Sequence record: NC_104190.1
From: Escherichia phage IME178
Direction: 5' to 3' (one strand)
Length of the DNA: 64,000 nucleotides
Of this stretch, positions 7,084-62,485 are shown piece by piece. Within the stretch, counting starts at the first letter, position 1; every line of letters begins with the position of its first letter. Position numbers and translations under genes: made by a program. The notes under the pieces are model-generated. The model was not told the origin of the DNA, ran no database searches, and worked only from the letters and a program-made list of their open reading frames with translations.

Positions 7084-7691
7084 TAAAGAATCCTCTGTAC
7101 ACCGCAGCTATTATTTTTGTCTGTGGTAAATGTGGTGATTTTGCCAGTTTCATCATTAACTTGCGCAACCGTCAACTGCCCGTTGAAAACACCGCCAGTA
7201 TCAAGGTAAACACGGTTTTTATAAAGAAGTGGGTAAGGTACTCCAGTATGCCCATGAAACACGAAATCTACCCCTTTAACTTCTGGCACTTCTACCATGT
7301 ATTTTTCTTTAAATCCTGAATAACGCTGGAAATACGGGTGTTCCTCACCATTTTTGGACAAGTAGAAGCCTATTTCTTGGATTACATCTCGATCCCATAA
7401 ATATGGTTCAATATGGTACCCAGGATGGTCATGTGGGTCTTCCTTAGCTGCTTCTACTTGTGCAATAAGATTATCCCATACTGGGGTTTCTACCTCATTA
7501 CCGCATTCTTTGTATGTAAAAGGTACACCACCGTGAACAACACCATACTTCTTACCACGATGTCTAACAGTTAGGAATACTGGCATTTTTTTCAGCCATA
7601 TCTTCGGCGATATTTTTAATGGTGTCTGCATCCAGCTCTTCCATAGCCCATATACCACCGTTATACATCCAATTAGCCCAATCTCCTGCAA
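7083..7691 (-). CDS. Ser/Thr protein phosphatase, C-terminal fragment
   Basis: VVHGGV and FVFHGHT resemble the C-terminal half of lambda-type PPP phosphatases; N-terminal half lies in another frame. Confidence 0.6.
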   Translation of the reverse strand: MQEIGLIGCITVVYGLWKSWMQTPLKISPKIWLKKMPVFLTVRHRGKKYGVVHGGVPFTYKECGNEVETPVWDNLIAQVEAAKEDPHDHPGYHIEPYLWDRDVIQEIGFYLSKNGEEHPYFQRYSGFKEKYMVEVPEVKGVDFVFHGHTGVPYPLLYKNRVYLDTGGVFNGQLTVAQVNDETGKITTFTTDKNNSCGVQRIL

Positions 7692-8656: not shown

Positions 8657-8911
8657 TTATCTCCACCGTGGATAGTCATTACAAGTATATTTAAATTCAA
8701 TTTTCTGAGTAGGAGTAAATATCATATCACCATTGGTGCTAATAGATGTAAGAGTAGTAGATACTGTTCGCATTTCTTGCGTTTGTACACAGTTCTGGGC
8801 TGCCATTTCTTGGGCATCCTTAGCTTTATAATAGGCTTGTACCACCACTAAAGCAGTAGCTACTATACCAAGTCCAACCACTACCTTACCTAAGTGATTA
8901 TATAATATCAT
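8657..8911 (-). CDS. small membrane protein (84 aa)
   Basis: N-terminal transmembrane segment; promoter motif just upstream. Confidence 0.45.
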   Translation of the reverse strand: MILYNHLGKVVVGLGIVATALVVVQAYYKAKDAQEMAAQNCVQTQEMRTVSTTLTSISTNGDMIFTPTQKIEFKYTCNDYPRWR

Positions 8912-9027: not shown

Positions 9028-9303
9028 TCATCCAGGAAATTTTTTAATAGCTTCGTGCATAGTTTCTTTACGAAGCTGACGTCCAATCAGAATATGATTA
9101 GCTTCTACTCGACCATTAGGTAAGCGATCTGCCAGAACTACTACAGGAACTTGGCGCACACCAAATTTCTGCATTAATTCTGTATTATCAGTCTCTTTGT
9201 GGACTTCCAAATTATAGTCATTGACTACTTTATCAAATACTGGCTCAAACATTTTGCAAGGGTTGCAAGTGGAACCTTTCAATAGATATACTAATTTACT
9301 CAT
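9028..9303 (-). CDS. thioredoxin/glutaredoxin-like protein
   Basis: CNPC active-site-like CxxC motif near the N-terminus, small size. Confidence 0.6.
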   Translation of the reverse strand: MSKLVYLLKGSTCNPCKMFEPVFDKVVNDYNLEVHKETDNTELMQKFGVRQVPVVVLADRLPNGRVEANHILIGRQLRKETMHEAIKKFPG

Positions 9304-9802: not shown

Positions 9803-10219
9803 TTAATCTACTGCATGTATAAATTTTTTCCTAACTAGATACATAGTTATTGGGTAAATTGAGTACATAAGTATCGGGGAGAAAAGGGTGAAATACGCTG
9901 TAACTCCCCCAGCTAACATCAAAGGTATTAATGCTAGAGTAAGGGCCATAAGAATCATACCGAATGAAACAGCCAAAGCTATGGATATAGGATTCTCTAG
10001 TTCCATCCATAACCAACAATATTTCGTATCTCTATGGCAATTGCATTTACAAACGCCGAATGAACCCATAATTATATACTCTAGTCCGTGAATAACCTTT
10101 ATTAATAAGCTATTTCGGGTAGTTAATGCAATGATAGTAAAGACTATCATTAAAACGAATACTACTAGACTTATTTTCCAGATACCTAGCAGCATCATAG
10201 TGAATAGTTCTGCAAACAT
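9803..10219 (-). CDS. membrane protein (138 aa)
   Basis: Multiple hydrophobic segments; downstream of endolysin. Confidence 0.45.
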   Translation of the reverse strand: MFAELFTMMLLGIWKISLVVFVLMIVFTIIALTTRNSLLIKVIHGLEYIIMGSFGVCKCNCHRDTKYCWLWMELENPISIALAVSFGMILMALTLALIPLMLAGGVTAYFTLFSPILMYSIYPITMYLVRKKFIHAVD

Positions 10220-10296
10220 GGCTTTCTCCTATCTTCAAAAATTATTAAAGCCCCCTTTGCCTAAAAAGGCGGGAGTATTCCCGCCTAAGTTATTAA

Positions 10297-10710
10297 TTAA
10301 ACTAGTTCGACATGACCGCCATCATAGGTACCACGTTTTATTTCATCGTGATAGTCTCCAGAATTATTCCAATCAGCACCAAAACGAAGTTTAATACCTA
10401 GTTCTTTACCCGCTTGTTCAAAAGCCTTTTTAACCGCCCAAAATGCTTCTAAGTCATTCCAATCAATTTTGCCATTAATATATGGAGCAAAATCAAGCGC
10501 ATCCCCAGTAATATGCTTGCTTTTACTAGGATCTTTTAAAAATGAAGTACCATTAGCAATATTCTGGGCACTTTGTGCTACTGTACGGATACCCTGTACG
10601 ATTGTGAAATCATATGGGGATAATTCTAAAGCTCTACGAGCTACTTTTTGTAGCTCTGGCTTAACGGTAGCTAATTGTTTTTCGCTATTTTTACCAAATT
10701 TAAAACTCAT
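10297..10710 (-). CDS. lys: endolysin, L-alanyl-D-glutamate peptidase (M15-like)
   Basis: 137 aa, the size I recall for T5 endolysin; zinc-peptidase-like H and D residues. Confidence 0.75.
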   Translation of the reverse strand: MSFKFGKNSEKQLATVKPELQKVARRALELSPYDFTIVQGIRTVAQSAQNIANGTSFLKDPSKSKHITGDALDFAPYINGKIDWNDLEAFWAVKKAFEQAGKELGIKLRFGADWNNSGDYHDEIKRGTYDGGHVELV

Positions 10711-10994
10711 ATTGATCTACCTAAAGATCTCTGTTGTGGGGAACAGAGCTTTGTTAAATATTCCTTAAATTTCTCAGAATCGGCTGCATCTACAGGATTA
10801 TCTTTCCAAGCAATACCAATATATCCAGCATAGATATTGTTTAGATTGAAATATGGACAAGTGTATATGTAATTAAAAGTAACGTTCTTAAACGCAGGTA
10901 TATTTAACCCCGTATATTTATTTACTCTTACACTTAAATCCGATGCGTAGTTAAAGCCCTCTAAGTGACGTCTGTATAGCTCAGACGTTTTTAT
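10707..10994 (-). CDS. holin-like protein, C-terminal fragment (no start codon)
   Basis: About 95 open codons ending at a TGA that overlaps the lys ATG; no ATG/GTG/TTG; frame offset from upstream ORF at an A5 run. Confidence 0.4.
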   Translation of the reverse strand: MKTSELYRRHLEGFNYASDLSVRVNKYTGLNIPAFKNVTFNYIYTCPYFNLNNIYAGYIGIAWKDNPVDAADSEKFKEYLTKLCSPQQRSLGRSI

Positions 10995-11364
10995 TTACTG
11001 CTTTATCGGCCAAGTCAGCCCTATCTAATTGCGCATTGCTTTCCCATGCAATAATGTTAGAATAATCATTAATGGCATCGGGTTTATACTTGACTACAAA
11101 AACAGCATCCGCACCCGTTTGAGAAAAGAGTACCATGCTCTTTTCTCTAGCTACATTAGGAAAGTTATCTATCCTTTGAGTTTGAACATCCTGTAGAACC
11201 GCAGACGTGGAGAAAGTCTTTAAGAATGACATCACCTCGCTAGTATTACTAACAAATAAGAAAATAATGACAGCAACTAAGATAGTTAGCAGACGTTTAA
11301 GAAGCGATGCTGGATCTTTCGCTTCTTGGAGCAGTACCGTTAATAATTGTAAGAACTTTTCCAA
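10981..11364 (-). CDS. holin-like membrane protein, N-terminal fragment
   Basis: Transmembrane segment; directly upstream of endolysin; frame breaks at the A5 run. Confidence 0.5.
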   Translation of the reverse strand: MEKFLQLLTVLLQEAKDPASLLKRLLTILVAVIIFLFVSNTSEVMSFLKTFSTSAVLQDVQTQRIDNFPNVAREKSMVLFSQTGADAVFVVKYKPDAINDYSNIIAWESNAQLDRADLADKAVNKNV

Positions 11365-11479
11365 TTGTAACCTCCTCTAACTAGTACCATTATACTAATT
11401 TTGGAGGAAAATTACAATGTATTTTTAAAGATTTTCTTTGGAGCACAAAATTTTGTCGTTGTCAAGAAGAATTTTAGAT

Positions 11480-12900: not shown

Positions 12901-13239
12901 TTAATTGGTGGATAGTAAACTAAGCAACGTTTTTTCTTGTAAATCTTGGCGATAGAAGCAAACCATACCAGTCAGTCGTGAAATATATGAGTATTCTGCC
13001 TCACGGCATTTTGCCAACATATTCCAATCTTTATATGGTACAACAACTACTACGCCATCTTCTCCATTTGTAGCTAATTTCTTTTCAAACTTAAAGTCAA
13101 AGCTACACGGTTGAAGTCCTTTAGGCCAGTCTACATGAGCTTGCTTTAACTCATGAGATGGCTCTGGTTTTATTTCTTCTGCACAGCCTGTGATTGTGAT
13201 TGCGGCTGCGAGCAGTATTCCAAGTTTCCAGTTAAACAC
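12901..13239 (-). CDS. putative lipoprotein
   Basis: Signal peptide with lipobox ITGC. Confidence 0.55.
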   Translation of the reverse strand: MFNWKLGILLAAAITITGCAEEIKPEPSHELKQAHVDWPKGLQPCSFDFKFEKKLATNGEDGVVVVVPYKDWNMLAKCREAEYSYISRLTGMVCFYRQDLQEKTLLSLLSTN

Positions 13240-16825: not shown

Positions 16826-16903
16826 ATTACCTCCATTAAGTCTTTTAAATTAACCTAATGTGGATGAATTTTATTATACATATATTATGTACCTTTATAC
16901 AGA

Positions 16904-16940
16904 AAAACCCCAGACTACTTATTCAATAGCTGGGGTTTGT
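16904..16940 (-). terminator. rho-independent terminator
   Basis: Hairpin ACCCCAG/CTGGGGT followed by a T-run on the minus strand. Confidence 0.55.
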
Positions 16941-20891: not shown

Positions 20892-21150
20892 AAATTCTTT
20901 AGTTTACTAAGGCTATTAGCTCGGCGTAACTACAGCACCTTCGCTTAGAGCGGAAGGAACTACGTCATCTCGCAAACCCAATACACTATTCAGTTGCCGC
21001 TGAATCTAGTGGACCAATCTAGAACTTCTCCCGAATCGTAGGGATCGTGCTTTTTGGCAGCCAGTCCTAGGTCGAGCTAATACCTTAGTGAACTATGATG
21101 AGGATTTCTCCTCATCAATTTATATAAATATTATAACAAGAAATTAAGCA

Positions 21151-23103: not shown

Positions 23104-23281
23104 ATTAAATTACTTTTTCCAGTTCATCAGCTATGGCTTTGATTTTTTCAAAGTTTACATCACTAATAATGATACCTTCCAGTGACAGAGATATTCTAGC
23201 ATTTTTTCGTAGCAGATTCTTTTATCTGCTCTATCTCTTCTGGAGTAAACTCTCTACGTTCCATAGCTAACCTACATTATT

Positions 23282-24547: not shown

Positions 24548-24826
24548 TTAAGAATTTGATGCCTTTTTTTTTTTTTTTTTCTTCTTATACTTCCACGTTA
24601 ATGGATTCTGTCGATTGTGAACGCTTGAGATCTTTGTCTCGTCAAAGTTCTTCAATACCATGTAATCACAAGATAATTGTTCTAATGGAATGTGATCACC
24701 GTCAAAAGCGTATACATAAGGCTGTTGACTAGCACTATAATGATAGACTTTGTTAATTCTACGTTTCAGCAACTTATCCGCGCAGTAAATAAAGAAGTTT
24801 TCAGGATGCATCAGCAGCTCCCTCAA
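24548..24826 (-). CDS. hypothetical protein with C-terminal poly-Lys encoded by an A17 tract
   Basis: ORF runs through a 17-nt homopolymer giving KYKKKKKKKK before the stop. Confidence 0.4.
   Translation of the reverse strand: MRELLMHPENFFIYCADKLLKRRINKVYHYSASQQPYVYAFDGDHIPLEQLSCDYMVLKNFDETKISSVHNRQNPLTWKYKKKKKKKKASNS
24564..24580. repeat. 17-nt T/A homopolymer
   Basis: Uninterrupted T17 on the plus strand inside the 3-prime end of a minus-strand ORF. Confidence 0.9.
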
Positions 24827-31059: not shown

Positions 31060-31413
31060 TTACTCTACTTCAATGAAGGTAGAGGCGTTAGACTCGGACA
31101 GAACAAAGTCAACATTTGTTGCAAAGTCCTGATATTCCTCGTCATGCTGCTTAATCAGCTTTTCCAGTTCCAGCGGATCAATCAAGAATGGAGTATTCTT
31201 GAGTTCCAGCAGGTTGAGCTGCATTTTAACTTCATCTTCGGAAGTTTTTCTTATCGCGGGTAGCCATGCTATCCTGCAAACGCTCATATTTAGCATCAAA
31301 CTGTGCTTTCTGCGTATTAAACTTAACCGTGGCGGCATGGAACTGCTTACGCATGTTAGCCAGCAGTTGGGCTTTAAGTTCCATAGAACGCTTAGCTTCA
31401 ATTGCTTCCGCAA
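31060..31413 (-). CDS. hypothetical protein, probable C-terminal fragment
   Basis: Overlaps the upstream ORF by 182 nt in another frame; frames meet at an A5 run. Confidence 0.4.
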   Translation of the reverse strand: MRKQLKLSVLWNLKPNCWLTCVSSSMPPRLSLIRRKHSLMLNMSVCRIAWLPAIRKTSEDEVKMQLNLLELKNTPFLIDPLELEKLIKQHDEEYQDFATNVDFVLSESNASTFIEVE

Positions 31414-34707: not shown

Positions 34708-34802
34708 ATGTGTACCTCCAATTTATAAAATATATTATATTTAAATTTCACTAAATAAGCAAATGAAATTTAAATATAATAGCCCCGAAGGGGCTATTTG
34801 AG

Positions 34803-56518: not shown

Positions 56519-57294
56519 GTAGAATAACAGAACTACTTGATCTGAAAGGCATTGAATATAAAGACACAGGTGGGGACATCCTCATCTGTTGTCTCAATCC
56601 AGATCATGACGATAAACACCCAAGTTTGCGTATTGATCCTGAAACAGGTATTATGCACTGCTTGAGTTGTGGCTTCGGTAAAGGTATACCGAGCATTTAC
56701 CATTATTTTAATGAGACTCAGTACCGACAGTCCCCAAGGCTATCGCAAGTACGTAAAAAGATTTCAGAGATTAGGAATGGGTCAACGAATCTTGCAATTC
56801 CTGAATCTGCTTACCTTTTCGAAGGTGATTTCCGAGGTATAAGTTCTAAGACCTTGAAGAAATATTTTGCTTTCCAACACCAAGCAGACTGGGAAGGCAG
56901 AATTGTATTCCCAATCACAGATGCTGTTGGACGCAATATCCTATTTTTGGGTCGTTCTATAAACAGTTCTGCCCCTCCTAAATACTTAGTAAAACCAAAA
57001 CAAGTTTCACCACCAATTTTTCCTGTACGATATAATACCCCAATTCTTATTCTAGTTGAAGGTATCTTTGATATGCTGAATCTAGAGGATAATGGTATAG
57101 ACTATGCTTCTTGTTGCTTCGGTACACATCAGTTTACTTCAGATAACATTGCAGATAAGTTTAGTCCGTATATTATTGCTGGTGTTAAAGTTGTTGTTAT
57201 CTTACTAGATAATGATGCTTCTGGTAATAAAGCTGCACAAGCACTGGCTAAGCTAATTCGTACAAAAAACGCGTTTAACACCTGTAGTTGCTAA
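56515..57294 (+). CDS. DnaG-like DNA primase (zinc-binding plus TOPRIM), truncated by frameshift
   Basis: Zn ribbon CCLNPDH...HCLSCGFG, TOPRIM ILVEGIFD and LLDNDASG; ORF stops just after an A6 run. Confidence 0.75.
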   Translation: MSRITELLDLKGIEYKDTGGDILICCLNPDHDDKHPSLRIDPETGIMHCLSCGFGKGIPSIYHYFNETQYRQSPRLSQVRKKISEIRNGSTNLAIPESAYLFEGDFRGISSKTLKKYFAFQHQADWEGRIVFPITDAVGRNILFLGRSINSSAPPKYLVKPKQVSPPIFPVRYNTPILILVEGIFDMLNLEDNGIDYASCCFGTHQFTSDNIADKFSPYIIAGVKVVVILLDNDASGNKAAQALAKLIRTKNAFNTCSC

Positions 57295-62264: not shown

Positions 62265-62485
62265 ATGATGTATAATATACACATAAATTTGAGAGAGAAA
62301 GTTTCGGATTGATAAGAAAGTCCGAAGCAGAAAAATAAAAAATTTTAGTTGCTAAATTCTCTCGAAATCTAGTATAATATATACATAAATTCGAGGAGAA
62401 AATAAAAATTAAATTCTTCGATTATGAAAAGCTATACTTACTAGCTAGAGGAAATTCCGACCTAATTATTAAGCTATTCAAAAGA

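What the first reader, a model, noticed from the sequence alone, without database searches (positions are those of the whole stretch)
10707..11364. Holin-like gene upstream of endolysin is split at an A5 run; downstream part has no start codon
ORF 10981-11364 (transmembrane N-terminus) stops at TGA; the adjacent frame stays open for about 95 codons down to a TGA overlapping the lys ATG, yet contains no ATG, GTG or TTG. Deleting one A from AAAAA (minus strand; plus T-run 10988-10992) fuses them into a protein of about 220 aa, close to the holin size I recall for T5.
Basis: partly seen in the sequence, partly recalled or inferred. Interest (0 to 1): 0.6.

Follow-up and report, generated by a model that had tools for sequence, protein, structure and literature searches.

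The report
T5 holin split by homopolymer miscall
The well-known holin (lysis-timing) gene of a T5-like phage appears cut in two by one extra A, but seven other genes in the window are broken the same way, so this is almost certainly a sequencing error rather than biology.

Summary
On the minus strand, a TTG-initiated ORF (11364..10981, 127 aa) ends at TGA. The next frame (10991..10707) stays open for 94 sense codons with no ATG, GTG or TTG, down to a TGA that overlaps the endolysin ATG. Removing one A from the A5 run (10992-10988) gives a 657-nt, 218-aa gene. That gene is identical to the holin of phages PK7 and DaisyDussoix and the same size as T5 holin T5.041. It matches Pfam Phage_holin_T end to end (374 bits), and the two fragments cover profile positions 2-136 and 135-233.

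The split is unique to this window. None of 422 related phage records has A5, three contig collections have no exact match, and all but two of 34 homolog clusters encode one protein of 218-222 aa (one is 245 aa, one is cut by a contig end).

The lesion is not isolated. The window has eight single-base insertions in homopolymer runs against PK7, AKFV33 and T5, and no deletions. Seven lie in conserved genes and frameshift each one, including the DNA primase. Natural indels between PK7 and AKFV33 are all intergenic.

Verdict: homopolymer over-calling in the assembly (confidence about 0.85). A real, tolerated truncation cannot be excluded without reads. Low interest.

The parts
11389..11417 (-). 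Promoter-like site TTGTAA-17 nt-TATAAT upstream of the holin gene
   Evidence: Consensus scan, 10 of 12 matches. Promoters are annotated at the equivalent position in T5 (record 20998-21071). Function is inferred, not tested.
11371..11377 (-). Shine-Dalgarno sequence GAGGAGG, six bases before the TTG start codon
   Evidence: Read directly from the sequence. Relatives annotate the holin CDS from this same TTG.
10981..11364 (-). Upstream holin fragment: residues 1-124 of the holin, then two out-of-frame residues (N, V) and a premature TGA. It contains the cytoplasmic N-terminus, the single transmembrane segment (about residues 20-40) and the first part of the periplasmic domain.
   Evidence: ORF list and translation. 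Pfam PF11031 at 196 bits, profile positions 2-136. Hydropathy.
10988..10992 (-). A5 run (T5 on the plus strand) carrying one extra base relative to all relatives. This is the frameshift site.
   Evidence: A5 against A4 in PK7, DaisyDussoix, AKFV33, fp01 and AZ23 and in T5. Of 422 phage records, none matches the 81-nt segment at 100%. The exact A5 27-mer is absent from the viral, metagenome and genome contig collections.
10707..10991 (-). Downstream holin fragment: residues 125-218, with no start codon. It holds most of the globular periplasmic domain, including both conserved cysteines. Its TGA overlaps the endolysin ATG.
   Evidence: Translation. No ATG, GTG or TTG in frame. Pfam PF11031 at 164 bits, profile positions 135-233. 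94/94 identical to AKFV33 holin residues 125-218. Aligns to the T4 holin T periplasmic domain 6pxe, with CPYFNL and the C-terminal Cys conserved.
10297..10710 (-). Endolysin gene (137 aa, M15-type peptidase). Its ATG overlaps the holin stop (ATGA) in the intact arrangement.
   Evidence: ORF. 99.3% identical to the AKFV33 endolysin over 137 aa in one frame. Weak Pfam Peptidase_M15_4 match at 24.4 bits, just under the 25-bit cut-off. Annotated as endolysin, M15 metallopeptidase or L-alanyl-D-glutamate peptidase in relatives.
10263..10285 (-). Hairpin GGCGGGA-ATAC-TCCCGCC followed by TTTTT, the likely terminator of the hol-lys unit
   Evidence: Read directly. A terminator is annotated at the equivalent place in AKFV33 and T5. 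The consensus scan did not list it.
7586..7592 (.). Window-specific +1 in a homopolymer (T7 against T6 in PK7 and AKFV33). It splits the Ser/Thr phosphatase gene (T5.035 homolog) into two frames.
   Evidence: tblastn: residues 1-120 in frame -2, 85-287 in frame -3.
9040..9045 (.). Window-specific +1 (T6 against T5 in three references). It truncates the thioredoxin gene (T5.037 homolog) near its C-terminus.
   Evidence: only residues 1-89 of 96 are in frame.
12930..12935 (.). Window-specific +1 (T6 against T5 in three references). It shifts the C-terminus of the T5.044 homolog, which T5 RefSeq annotates as an Rz-like spanin.
23202..23207 (.). Window-specific +1 (T6 against T5 in PK7 and AKFV33). 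It splits a 52-aa conserved ORF (AKFV33 orf066).
31245..31249 (.). Window-specific +1 (T5 against T4 in three references). It splits the T5.085 homolog at residue 150 of 212.
   Evidence: None of 227 phage records matches this 81-nt segment at 100%.
57264..57269 (.). Window-specific +1 (A6 against A5 in three references). It frameshifts the DNA primase gene 45 codons before its end.
   Evidence: None of 167 phage records matches at 100%.
62337..62342 (.). Window-specific +1 (A6 against A5 in three references), in intergenic sequence
   Evidence: The position falls between the helicase CDS and an annotated promoter in AKFV33.

Best explanation
The locus is the ordinary hol-lys lysis cassette of a Tequintavirus (T5-like phage). 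It consists of a promoter, a strong Shine-Dalgarno sequence, a TTG start, a 218-aa class III (T4 gpt-type) holin, and an M15 endolysin. The holin has one N-terminal transmembrane helix and a large periplasmic C-terminal domain. Its stop codon overlaps the endolysin ATG as ATGA.

In the real phage the holin is most likely one intact ORF. The apparent split comes from one extra A called in an A4 run, a homopolymer-length error of the sequencing or assembly that produced this sequence. The same kind of error occurs at seven or more other runs in the window.

Shown: the extra base, its uniqueness, the identity of the repaired gene, and the window-wide insertion-only pattern that does not spare coding sequence. 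Inferred: that the cause is technical and not a mutation in the phage.
For: 1. Single difference. Apart from the extra A, the 657-nt gene is identical to the PK7 and DaisyDussoix holin genes. It differs from the AKFV33 gene only by two synonymous changes. There is no decay of the start-less part.

2. Uniqueness. None of 422 related phage records carries the allele. There is no exact match in the viral, metagenome or genome contig collections. Of 34 homolog clusters spanning 44-94% identity, 32 encode one protein of 218-222 aa; the other two are one of 245 aa and one of 153 aa cut by the end of a 934-bp contig.

3. Window-wide signature. The window has eight single-base insertions in runs of 5-7 relative to PK7, AKFV33 and T5, which agree with one another. 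It has no window-specific deletions (sign test p = 0.008).

4. Length dependence. Of the runs called as length 5, 6 and 7, 2 of 219, 5 of 38 and 1 of 1 are affected.

5. No avoidance of coding sequence. Seven of the eight insertions lie in conserved CDSs, and each splits its gene into two abutting frames: Ser/Thr phosphatase, thioredoxin, holin, T5.044, orf066, T5.085 and DNA primase. Neighbouring genes (endolysin, Clp protease, dNMP kinase, DNA polymerase) are intact. The five isolated 1-2 nt indels between the two bona fide genomes PK7 and AKFV33 are all intergenic (Fisher p = 0.005).

6. Other sites are also unique. The primase and T5.085 run lengths occur in none of 167 and 227 records.
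Against: No reads or quality values are available, so the technical origin is inferred.

An A4 called as A5 is a short run for a miscall. Only 2 of about 675 such runs are affected.

The insertion-only bias cannot be tied to a particular platform from the sequence alone.

Function does not exclude a real allele. In T4, holin T lacking 70 or even 125 C-terminal residues still supports lysis when expressed from a plasmid (PMC12162936). A T5 holin truncated at residue 125 might therefore still form holes.
Confidence: 0.85

Rival explanations
1. Real frameshift mutation. The phage stock genuinely carries A5 and makes a 127-aa truncated holin, with the N-terminus, transmembrane helix and part of the bridge and periplasmic region but no globular domain or disulfide. 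This product still forms holes, perhaps with altered timing. Endolysin translation loses its ATGA coupling to holin translation.
For: Homopolymer slippage is a common real mutation. T4 holin T tolerates deletions of 70 and 125 C-terminal residues in plasmid assays (PMC12162936). The rest of the gene is intact, as expected for a very recent event.
Against: It would require seven further independent frameshifts, all insertions, to coexist in the same 64 kb. These include the DNA primase and five other conserved genes. The allele is absent from 422 relatives and three contig collections. Natural indels between relatives avoid CDSs, whereas these do not.
Confidence: 0.1
2. Programmed recoding. The A run is a site of +1 ribosomal frameshifting or transcriptional slippage, so one gene yields both a truncated and a full-length holin, a holin/antiholin-like pair.
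For: A +1 slip of tRNA-Lys on A-AAA-A would restore exactly the wild-type protein. This follows from the sequence. A 7-bp hairpin (ACGUCUG-N7-CAGACGU) starts right after the run, with a fold z-score of -2.4.
Against: The defining property of a recoding site is conservation of the out-of-frame arrangement. Here all relatives are in frame with A4. A5 is too short for efficient transcriptional slippage (general knowledge, not tested). There is no Shine-Dalgarno-like stimulator or slow codon at the shift site. The hairpin has zero spacer, and it is present equally in the in-frame relatives, where nothing needs recoding.
Confidence: 0.02
3. Native two-gene arrangement. The upstream ORF is a small holin, and the downstream frame is a separate gene or a non-coding spacer.
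For: Only the ORF map of the window as written.
Against: The downstream frame has no start codon. Its product would lack any export signal. Both pieces are halves of one Pfam domain. The downstream frame is 100% conserved at the protein level with synonymous-only DNA differences from the AKFV33 gene, so it evolves as coding sequence in frame with the upstream part. No homolog is split.
Confidence: 0.01

Closest known systems
Bacteriophage T5 holin (gene hol, locus T5.041, YP_006869; 218 aa) with endolysin T5.040
   Same: Same gene order: Clp-like protease, terminator, promoter, holin, endolysin, terminator, then the T5.039 membrane protein. Same 657-nt length after repair, same TTG start as annotated in close relatives, and the same ATGA overlap with lys. 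DNA identity around the site is about 94% to T5 and 98-99.6% to PK7, DaisyDussoix and AKFV33.
   Different: Only the one extra A at 10988-10992. As written, it truncates the ORF at codon 127.
Bacteriophage T4 holin T (gpt), founder of class III holins, Pfam PF11031 Phage_holin_T
   Same: Full-length Pfam match at 374 bits. One N-terminal transmembrane segment and a large C-terminal domain. The sequence matches the solved T periplasmic domain (6pxe, 6px4, 6psk; E = 8e-16), with the CPYFNL motif and both cysteines conserved. The literature places T5 hol in this class (PMC12894885).
   Different: Distant in sequence from T4 T. In T5-like phages the holin sits directly upstream of the endolysin and overlaps it. 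From my own knowledge, not tested here: in T4, t and e are not adjacent, and no RI-type antiholin is known for T5.
Homopolymer-length errors of sequencing and assembly (a known artefact class)
   Same: Single-base length changes confined to mononucleotide runs. The frequency rises with run length, the direction is uniform, coding sequence is not spared, and no independent genome of the same lineage shares them.
   Different: The platform and reads are unknown, so this is a diagnosis by pattern and not by inspection of the data.
Lambda S105/S107 dual-start holin/antiholin (two products from one holin gene)
   Same: Only the superficial idea that one holin gene could give two proteins.
   Different: Lambda uses two in-frame start codons and the arrangement is conserved (from my own knowledge). 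Here the two-frame arrangement is unique to one sequence, and the second frame has no start codon.

Membership tests
Phage_holin_T (PF11031; class III holins, T4 gpt / T5 hol) | Sequence match to the family profile above the curated threshold, over the whole profile | tested here: met
   The repaired protein scores 374.2 bits against a 22.2-bit cut-off, covering profile positions 2-233 of 233. The fragments score 196 bits (positions 2-136) and 164 bits (positions 135-233). PHROG 860 'holin', E = 5e-78.
Phage_holin_T (PF11031; class III holins, T4 gpt / T5 hol) | A single transmembrane segment near the N-terminus, with N-in, C-out topology | tested here: inconclusive
   There is one hydrophobic peak (Kyte-Doolittle 2.44, residues about 20-40) and none elsewhere. 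The T5 and AKFV33 records note a single TMD. Topology itself was not tested.
Phage_holin_T (PF11031; class III holins, T4 gpt / T5 hol) | Large globular periplasmic C-terminal domain with a conserved cysteine pair (disulfide in T4 T) | tested here: met
   Residues 57-216 align to the solved T4 T periplasmic domain 6pxe_T (E = 8e-16). Both cysteines align: Cys in YTCPYFNL with YSCPYFNL, and Cys in KLCSPQ with SICAQA. The role of the disulfide is taken from PMC12162936.
Phage_holin_T (PF11031; class III holins, T4 gpt / T5 hol) | Encoded as one uninterrupted ORF of about 218-222 codons | tested here: not met
   As written, the window has a +1 insertion at 10988-10992 that ends the ORF at codon 127. 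Of 34 homolog clusters, 32 are single ORFs of 218-222 aa; the other two are one of 245 aa and one cut by a contig end. I attribute the failure to a sequence error, not to the gene.
Phage_holin_T (PF11031; class III holins, T4 gpt / T5 hol) | Hole formation and endolysin release demonstrated | not testable with these tools
   This needs lysis assays. The T5 hol-lys operon paper (Chernyshov et al. 2024, cited in PMC12894885) was not held in the library.
Programmed ribosomal frameshift or transcriptional slippage site | The out-of-frame two-ORF arrangement and slippery run are conserved among homologs | tested here: not met
   All relatives have A4 and are in frame. None of 422 records has the A5 segment. 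No homolog cluster is a fragment of either frame.
Programmed ribosomal frameshift or transcriptional slippage site | A stimulatory element placed correctly: a Shine-Dalgarno-like sequence or slow codon for +1, or a structure 5-9 nt downstream for -1 | tested here: not met
   No Shine-Dalgarno-like sequence lies upstream of the run. The hairpin begins immediately after the run with zero spacer and has a modest z-score of -2.4.
Homopolymer sequencing/assembly artefact | Recurrent single-base length changes restricted to homopolymers, of uniform direction, absent from independent genomes | tested here: met
   Eight window-specific +1 sites and no -1 sites against three references. Three sites were checked against the whole phage collection, and none of 422, 167 and 227 records shares them.
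Homopolymer sequencing/assembly artefact | Errors fall in coding sequence in proportion to its share and break conserved or essential genes | tested here: met
   Seven of eight sites are in CDSs, and each gene is split into two frames, including the DNA primase. All five natural indels between PK7 and AKFV33 are outside CDSs (Fisher p = 0.005).
Homopolymer sequencing/assembly artefact | Low read support or quality at the site | not testable with these tools
   No reads or quality values are available.

The most novel reading that the evidence does not exclude
The A5 allele is real. This Tequintavirus isolate lyses its host with a naturally truncated class III holin: 125 native residues comprising the cytoplasmic helix, the transmembrane helix and part of the bridge region, but no globular periplasmic domain or disulfide. 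Its endolysin translation is uncoupled from holin translation. That would be a natural counterpart of the engineered T4 truncations lacking 70 and 125 C-terminal residues, which still support lysis, and it would imply that the periplasmic domain is dispensable for T5 plaque formation.
Probability: 0.07. Interest if true: 0.3.

Novelty: not a real feature. Interest (0 to 1): 0.06.

Why it matters
It matters mainly as quality control. Anyone annotating this genome should repair or flag the holin and at least six other genes (Ser/Thr phosphatase, thioredoxin, the T5.044 Rz-like protein, orf066, T5.085 and DNA primase) as frameshifted by probable homopolymer miscalls. They should not be reported as pseudogenes, split genes or a novel lysis arrangement. 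If the truncation were real, it would be a modest natural confirmation that the globular periplasmic domain of T-type holins is regulatory and not needed for hole formation.

Tried and rejected
1. I looked for the same allele elsewhere. I ran an 81-nt megablast against 50,697 phage records and exact 27-mer scans of the viral, metagenome and genome contig collections. None found it. The positive control with the A4 26-mer found only AKFV33, so exact-pattern scans have little power here. The megablast result carries the weight.

2. I tried to locate the source contig by exact look-up of the 127-aa product. It is not on record.

3. I looked for truncated or split homologs in the 5.8-billion-protein collection. 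There are none. The only short hit, 153 aa, sits on a 934-bp contig.

4. I considered arguing that a truncated holin must be non-functional and the split therefore an error. I rejected this, because T4 holin T tolerates large C-terminal truncations.

5. I considered programmed +1 frameshifting or transcriptional slippage. I rejected it for lack of conservation and of stimulatory elements.

6. Two candidate error sites turned out not to be window-specific and were dropped. At 16903-16907, AKFV33 and T5 also have A5, so PK7 carries the deletion. At 34790-34793, T5 has AGGG at the same length, so the site is ambiguous.

7. The T5 hol-lys operon paper (Chernyshov et al. 2024) and Tran et al. 2005 were not held in the library.

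Full report
**What is there.** On the minus strand, a TTG codon at 11364 lies six bases after the Shine-Dalgarno sequence GAGGAGG. It opens a 127-codon ORF that ends at TGA 10983-10981. The next reading frame is open from 10991 to 10707, with 94 sense codons followed by TGA. That frame contains no ATG, GTG or TTG. Its TGA overlaps the ATG of the next gene as ATGA. That gene is a 137-aa endolysin at 10710..10297. The two frames meet at an A5 run, minus-strand 10992-10988. Deleting one A gives a 657-nt ORF of 218 aa.

**What the gene is.** The window is a Tequintavirus (T5-like, Demerecviridae) genome segment.

- The 1.5 kb around the site matches 442 phage records. The best are PK7 (99.6%), WP85, AZ23, DaisyDussoix and AKFV33, and all of them annotate holin followed by endolysin here.
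- In PK7, DaisyDussoix, AKFV33, fp01 and AZ23 the holin CDS is 657 nt. It starts at the same TTG and overlaps the endolysin start.
- T5 RefSeq has the same 657-nt holin, T5.041, described as 'lysis protein; contains single transmembrane domain'.
- The repaired protein matches Pfam PF11031 Phage_holin_T over the whole profile (374 bits, positions 2-233 of 233). The upstream ORF alone covers positions 2-136 and the start-less frame covers 135-233.
- PHROG 860 'holin' matches at E = 5e-78.
- Residues 57-216 align with the solved periplasmic domain of T4 holin T (6pxe, E = 8e-16), and both cysteines are conserved.
- There is one hydrophobic segment, at residues about 20-40.
- The literature places T5 hol among the class III holins founded by T4 gpt, with one TMD and N-in, C-out topology (PMC12894885).

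The two pieces are therefore the two halves of one well-known gene.

**The lesion.** A six-way alignment shows a single gap column. The window has A5 and all five relatives have A4. T5 also has A4. Apart from that base, the gene is identical to the PK7 and DaisyDussoix genes. It differs from the AKFV33 gene by two synonymous changes. The start-less part is 94/94 identical in protein to AKFV33, so it shows no decay.

**Is the split found anywhere else?** No.

- An 81-nt segment centred on the run finds 422 phage records and none at 100%. The best 24 are all 80 bases long, with one gap.
- The exact A5 27-mer is absent from the viral, metagenome and genome contig collections. These exact scans have little power, because the A4 control found only AKFV33.
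- A protein search returned 34 homolog clusters from 94% down to 44% identity. Of these, 32 are single proteins of 218-222 aa; one is 245 aa and one is 153 aa, cut by the end of a 934-bp contig.

**The decisive context.** I aligned the whole window to the genomes of PK7 and AKFV33 and listed isolated 1-2 nt indels. I then checked each candidate against T5 as a third reference.

- The window carries single-base insertions at eight homopolymer runs where the references agree with one another:
  - 7586-7592 (T7 against T6)
  - 9040-9045 (T6 against T5)
  - 10988-10992 (T5 against T4, the holin)
  - 12930-12935 (T6 against T5)
  - 23202-23207 (T6 against T5)
  - 31245-31249 (T5 against T4)
  - 57264-57269 (A6 against A5)
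  - 62337-62342 (A6 against A5)
- A ninth site, 8812-8814, is supported by one reference only.
- There is no window-specific single-base deletion (sign test p = 0.008).
- The affected fraction rises with run length: 2 of 219 runs called as 5, 5 of 38 called as 6, and the only run called as 7.
- Seven of the eight sites lie in conserved CDSs. tblastn with the AKFV33 proteins shows each gene split into two abutting frames exactly at the run: Ser/Thr phosphatase (T5.035), thioredoxin (T5.037), holin, the T5.044 homolog, orf066, the T5.085 homolog and the DNA primase. The endolysin, Clp-like protease, dNMP kinase and DNA polymerase are each in one frame.
- As a control, PK7 against AKFV33 gives only five isolated 1-2 nt indels over 83 kb, in mixed directions. 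By the records' annotation all five are intergenic. Seven of eight coding against none of five coding gives Fisher p = 0.005.
- The primase and T5.085 run lengths are also unique to the window, among 167 and 227 records.

A viable phage carrying eight independent, insertion-only homopolymer changes, seven of them breaking conserved genes, is far less likely than homopolymer over-calling in the data behind this sequence.

**How the real thing most likely works.** This paragraph rests on family knowledge and is not tested here. Transcription starts from the promoter-like site at 11417-11389 (a promoter is annotated there in T5). Translation starts at TTG behind a strong Shine-Dalgarno sequence and produces a 218-aa holin, which accumulates in the inner membrane. 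Ribosomes terminating at the holin stop within ATGA can reinitiate on the endolysin gene. At the triggering time the holin permeabilises the membrane and releases the M15 peptidase to the cell wall. A hairpin followed by a T-run at 10285-10263 ends the unit (a terminator is annotated there in AKFV33 and T5).

**Rivals.**

- *A real frameshift allele.* Function cannot exclude it, because T4 holin T lacking 70 or 125 C-terminal residues still supports lysis in plasmid assays (PMC12162936). It is disfavoured by the seven other homopolymer frameshifts of the same kind and by the uniqueness of the allele. I put it at about 0.1.
- *Programmed +1 frameshifting or transcriptional slippage.* It fails the conservation test, since all relatives are in frame. 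It lacks stimulators, and the 7-bp hairpin right after the run (z = -2.4) has zero spacer and is equally present in the in-frame relatives. I put it at about 0.02.
- *A native two-gene arrangement.* It is refuted by the missing start codon, the single Pfam domain spanning both pieces, and the homologs.

**Verdict.** The split itself is most probably not a feature of the phage. The underlying gene is the already-known T5-type holin. Interest is low, and the practical value is to flag this assembly for homopolymer correction. Only reads or resequencing can close the remaining 10-15% of doubt.

Noticed in passing
window 7586-7592, 9040-9045, 12930-12935, 23202-23207, 31245-31249, 57264-57269 (also 8812-8814): Six other conserved genes are frameshifted by a single extra base in a homopolymer, relative to PK7, AKFV33 and T5. 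They are the Ser/Thr phosphatase, thioredoxin, the T5.044 homolog, orf066, the T5.085 homolog and the DNA primase. A small hypothetical gene at 8814 is affected too, on the evidence of one reference. Any of these could be mistaken for a pseudogene or split gene.
   Followed up: yes
window 12901-13239 (minus strand), indel at 12930-12935: A second lysis-related gene is affected. The T5.044 homolog, annotated as 'Rz-like spanin' in T5 RefSeq, loses its last 11 or so native residues to the same kind of +1 insertion. Two lysis genes hit could look like a pattern, but it fits the window-wide error rate.
   Followed up: partly
window 24564-24580: There is a T17 tract, A17 on the coding strand, in the lysine-rich C-terminal tail of the AKFV33 orf070 homolog. 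AKFV33 has AAAAAGAAA there, which is 8 nt shorter. The best of 315 related records span 143-144 bases against the window's 151, so the long tract seems unique and shifts the last 11 or so codons. It could be another homopolymer artefact or a real expansion. A17 is long enough for transcriptional slippage in principle.
   Followed up: partly
window 10967-10987 (minus-strand RNA: ACGUCUG-AGCUAUA-CAGACGU): A 7-bp hairpin lies inside the holin ORF and begins immediately after the A run. It is present in all six aligned phages. In fp01 the closing C is replaced by U, which keeps a G-U pair. The fold z-score is only -2.4. The scan also reports it as a terminator-like site on the antisense strand. 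Its significance is unknown and it may be chance.
   Followed up: partly
window 34786-34798: The window reads GCCCC-GAA-GGGGC, a perfect 5-bp stem just downstream of the AKFV33 orf092 homolog. PK7 and AKFV33 have GGG, one base shorter, and T5 has AGGG at the same length as the window. The extra G may therefore be real here. I did not count this site as an error.
   Followed up: partly
window 45548: The window lacks a CC dinucleotide that both PK7 and AKFV33 have (TCCCAGCTAG[CC]TGTATAATGAGG). It lies just upstream of a TGTATAAT extended -10-like motif, so the spacer of a probable promoter would be 2 nt shorter.
   Followed up: no
window 9803-10219 (minus strand): A 138-aa multi-pass membrane protein lies immediately downstream of the endolysin terminator. 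It is the T5.039 homolog, noted as having 3-4 TM segments in AKFV33 and T5, and it has no Pfam match. Its position next to the lysis cassette suggests a possible lysis-related role, which I did not examine.
   Followed up: no
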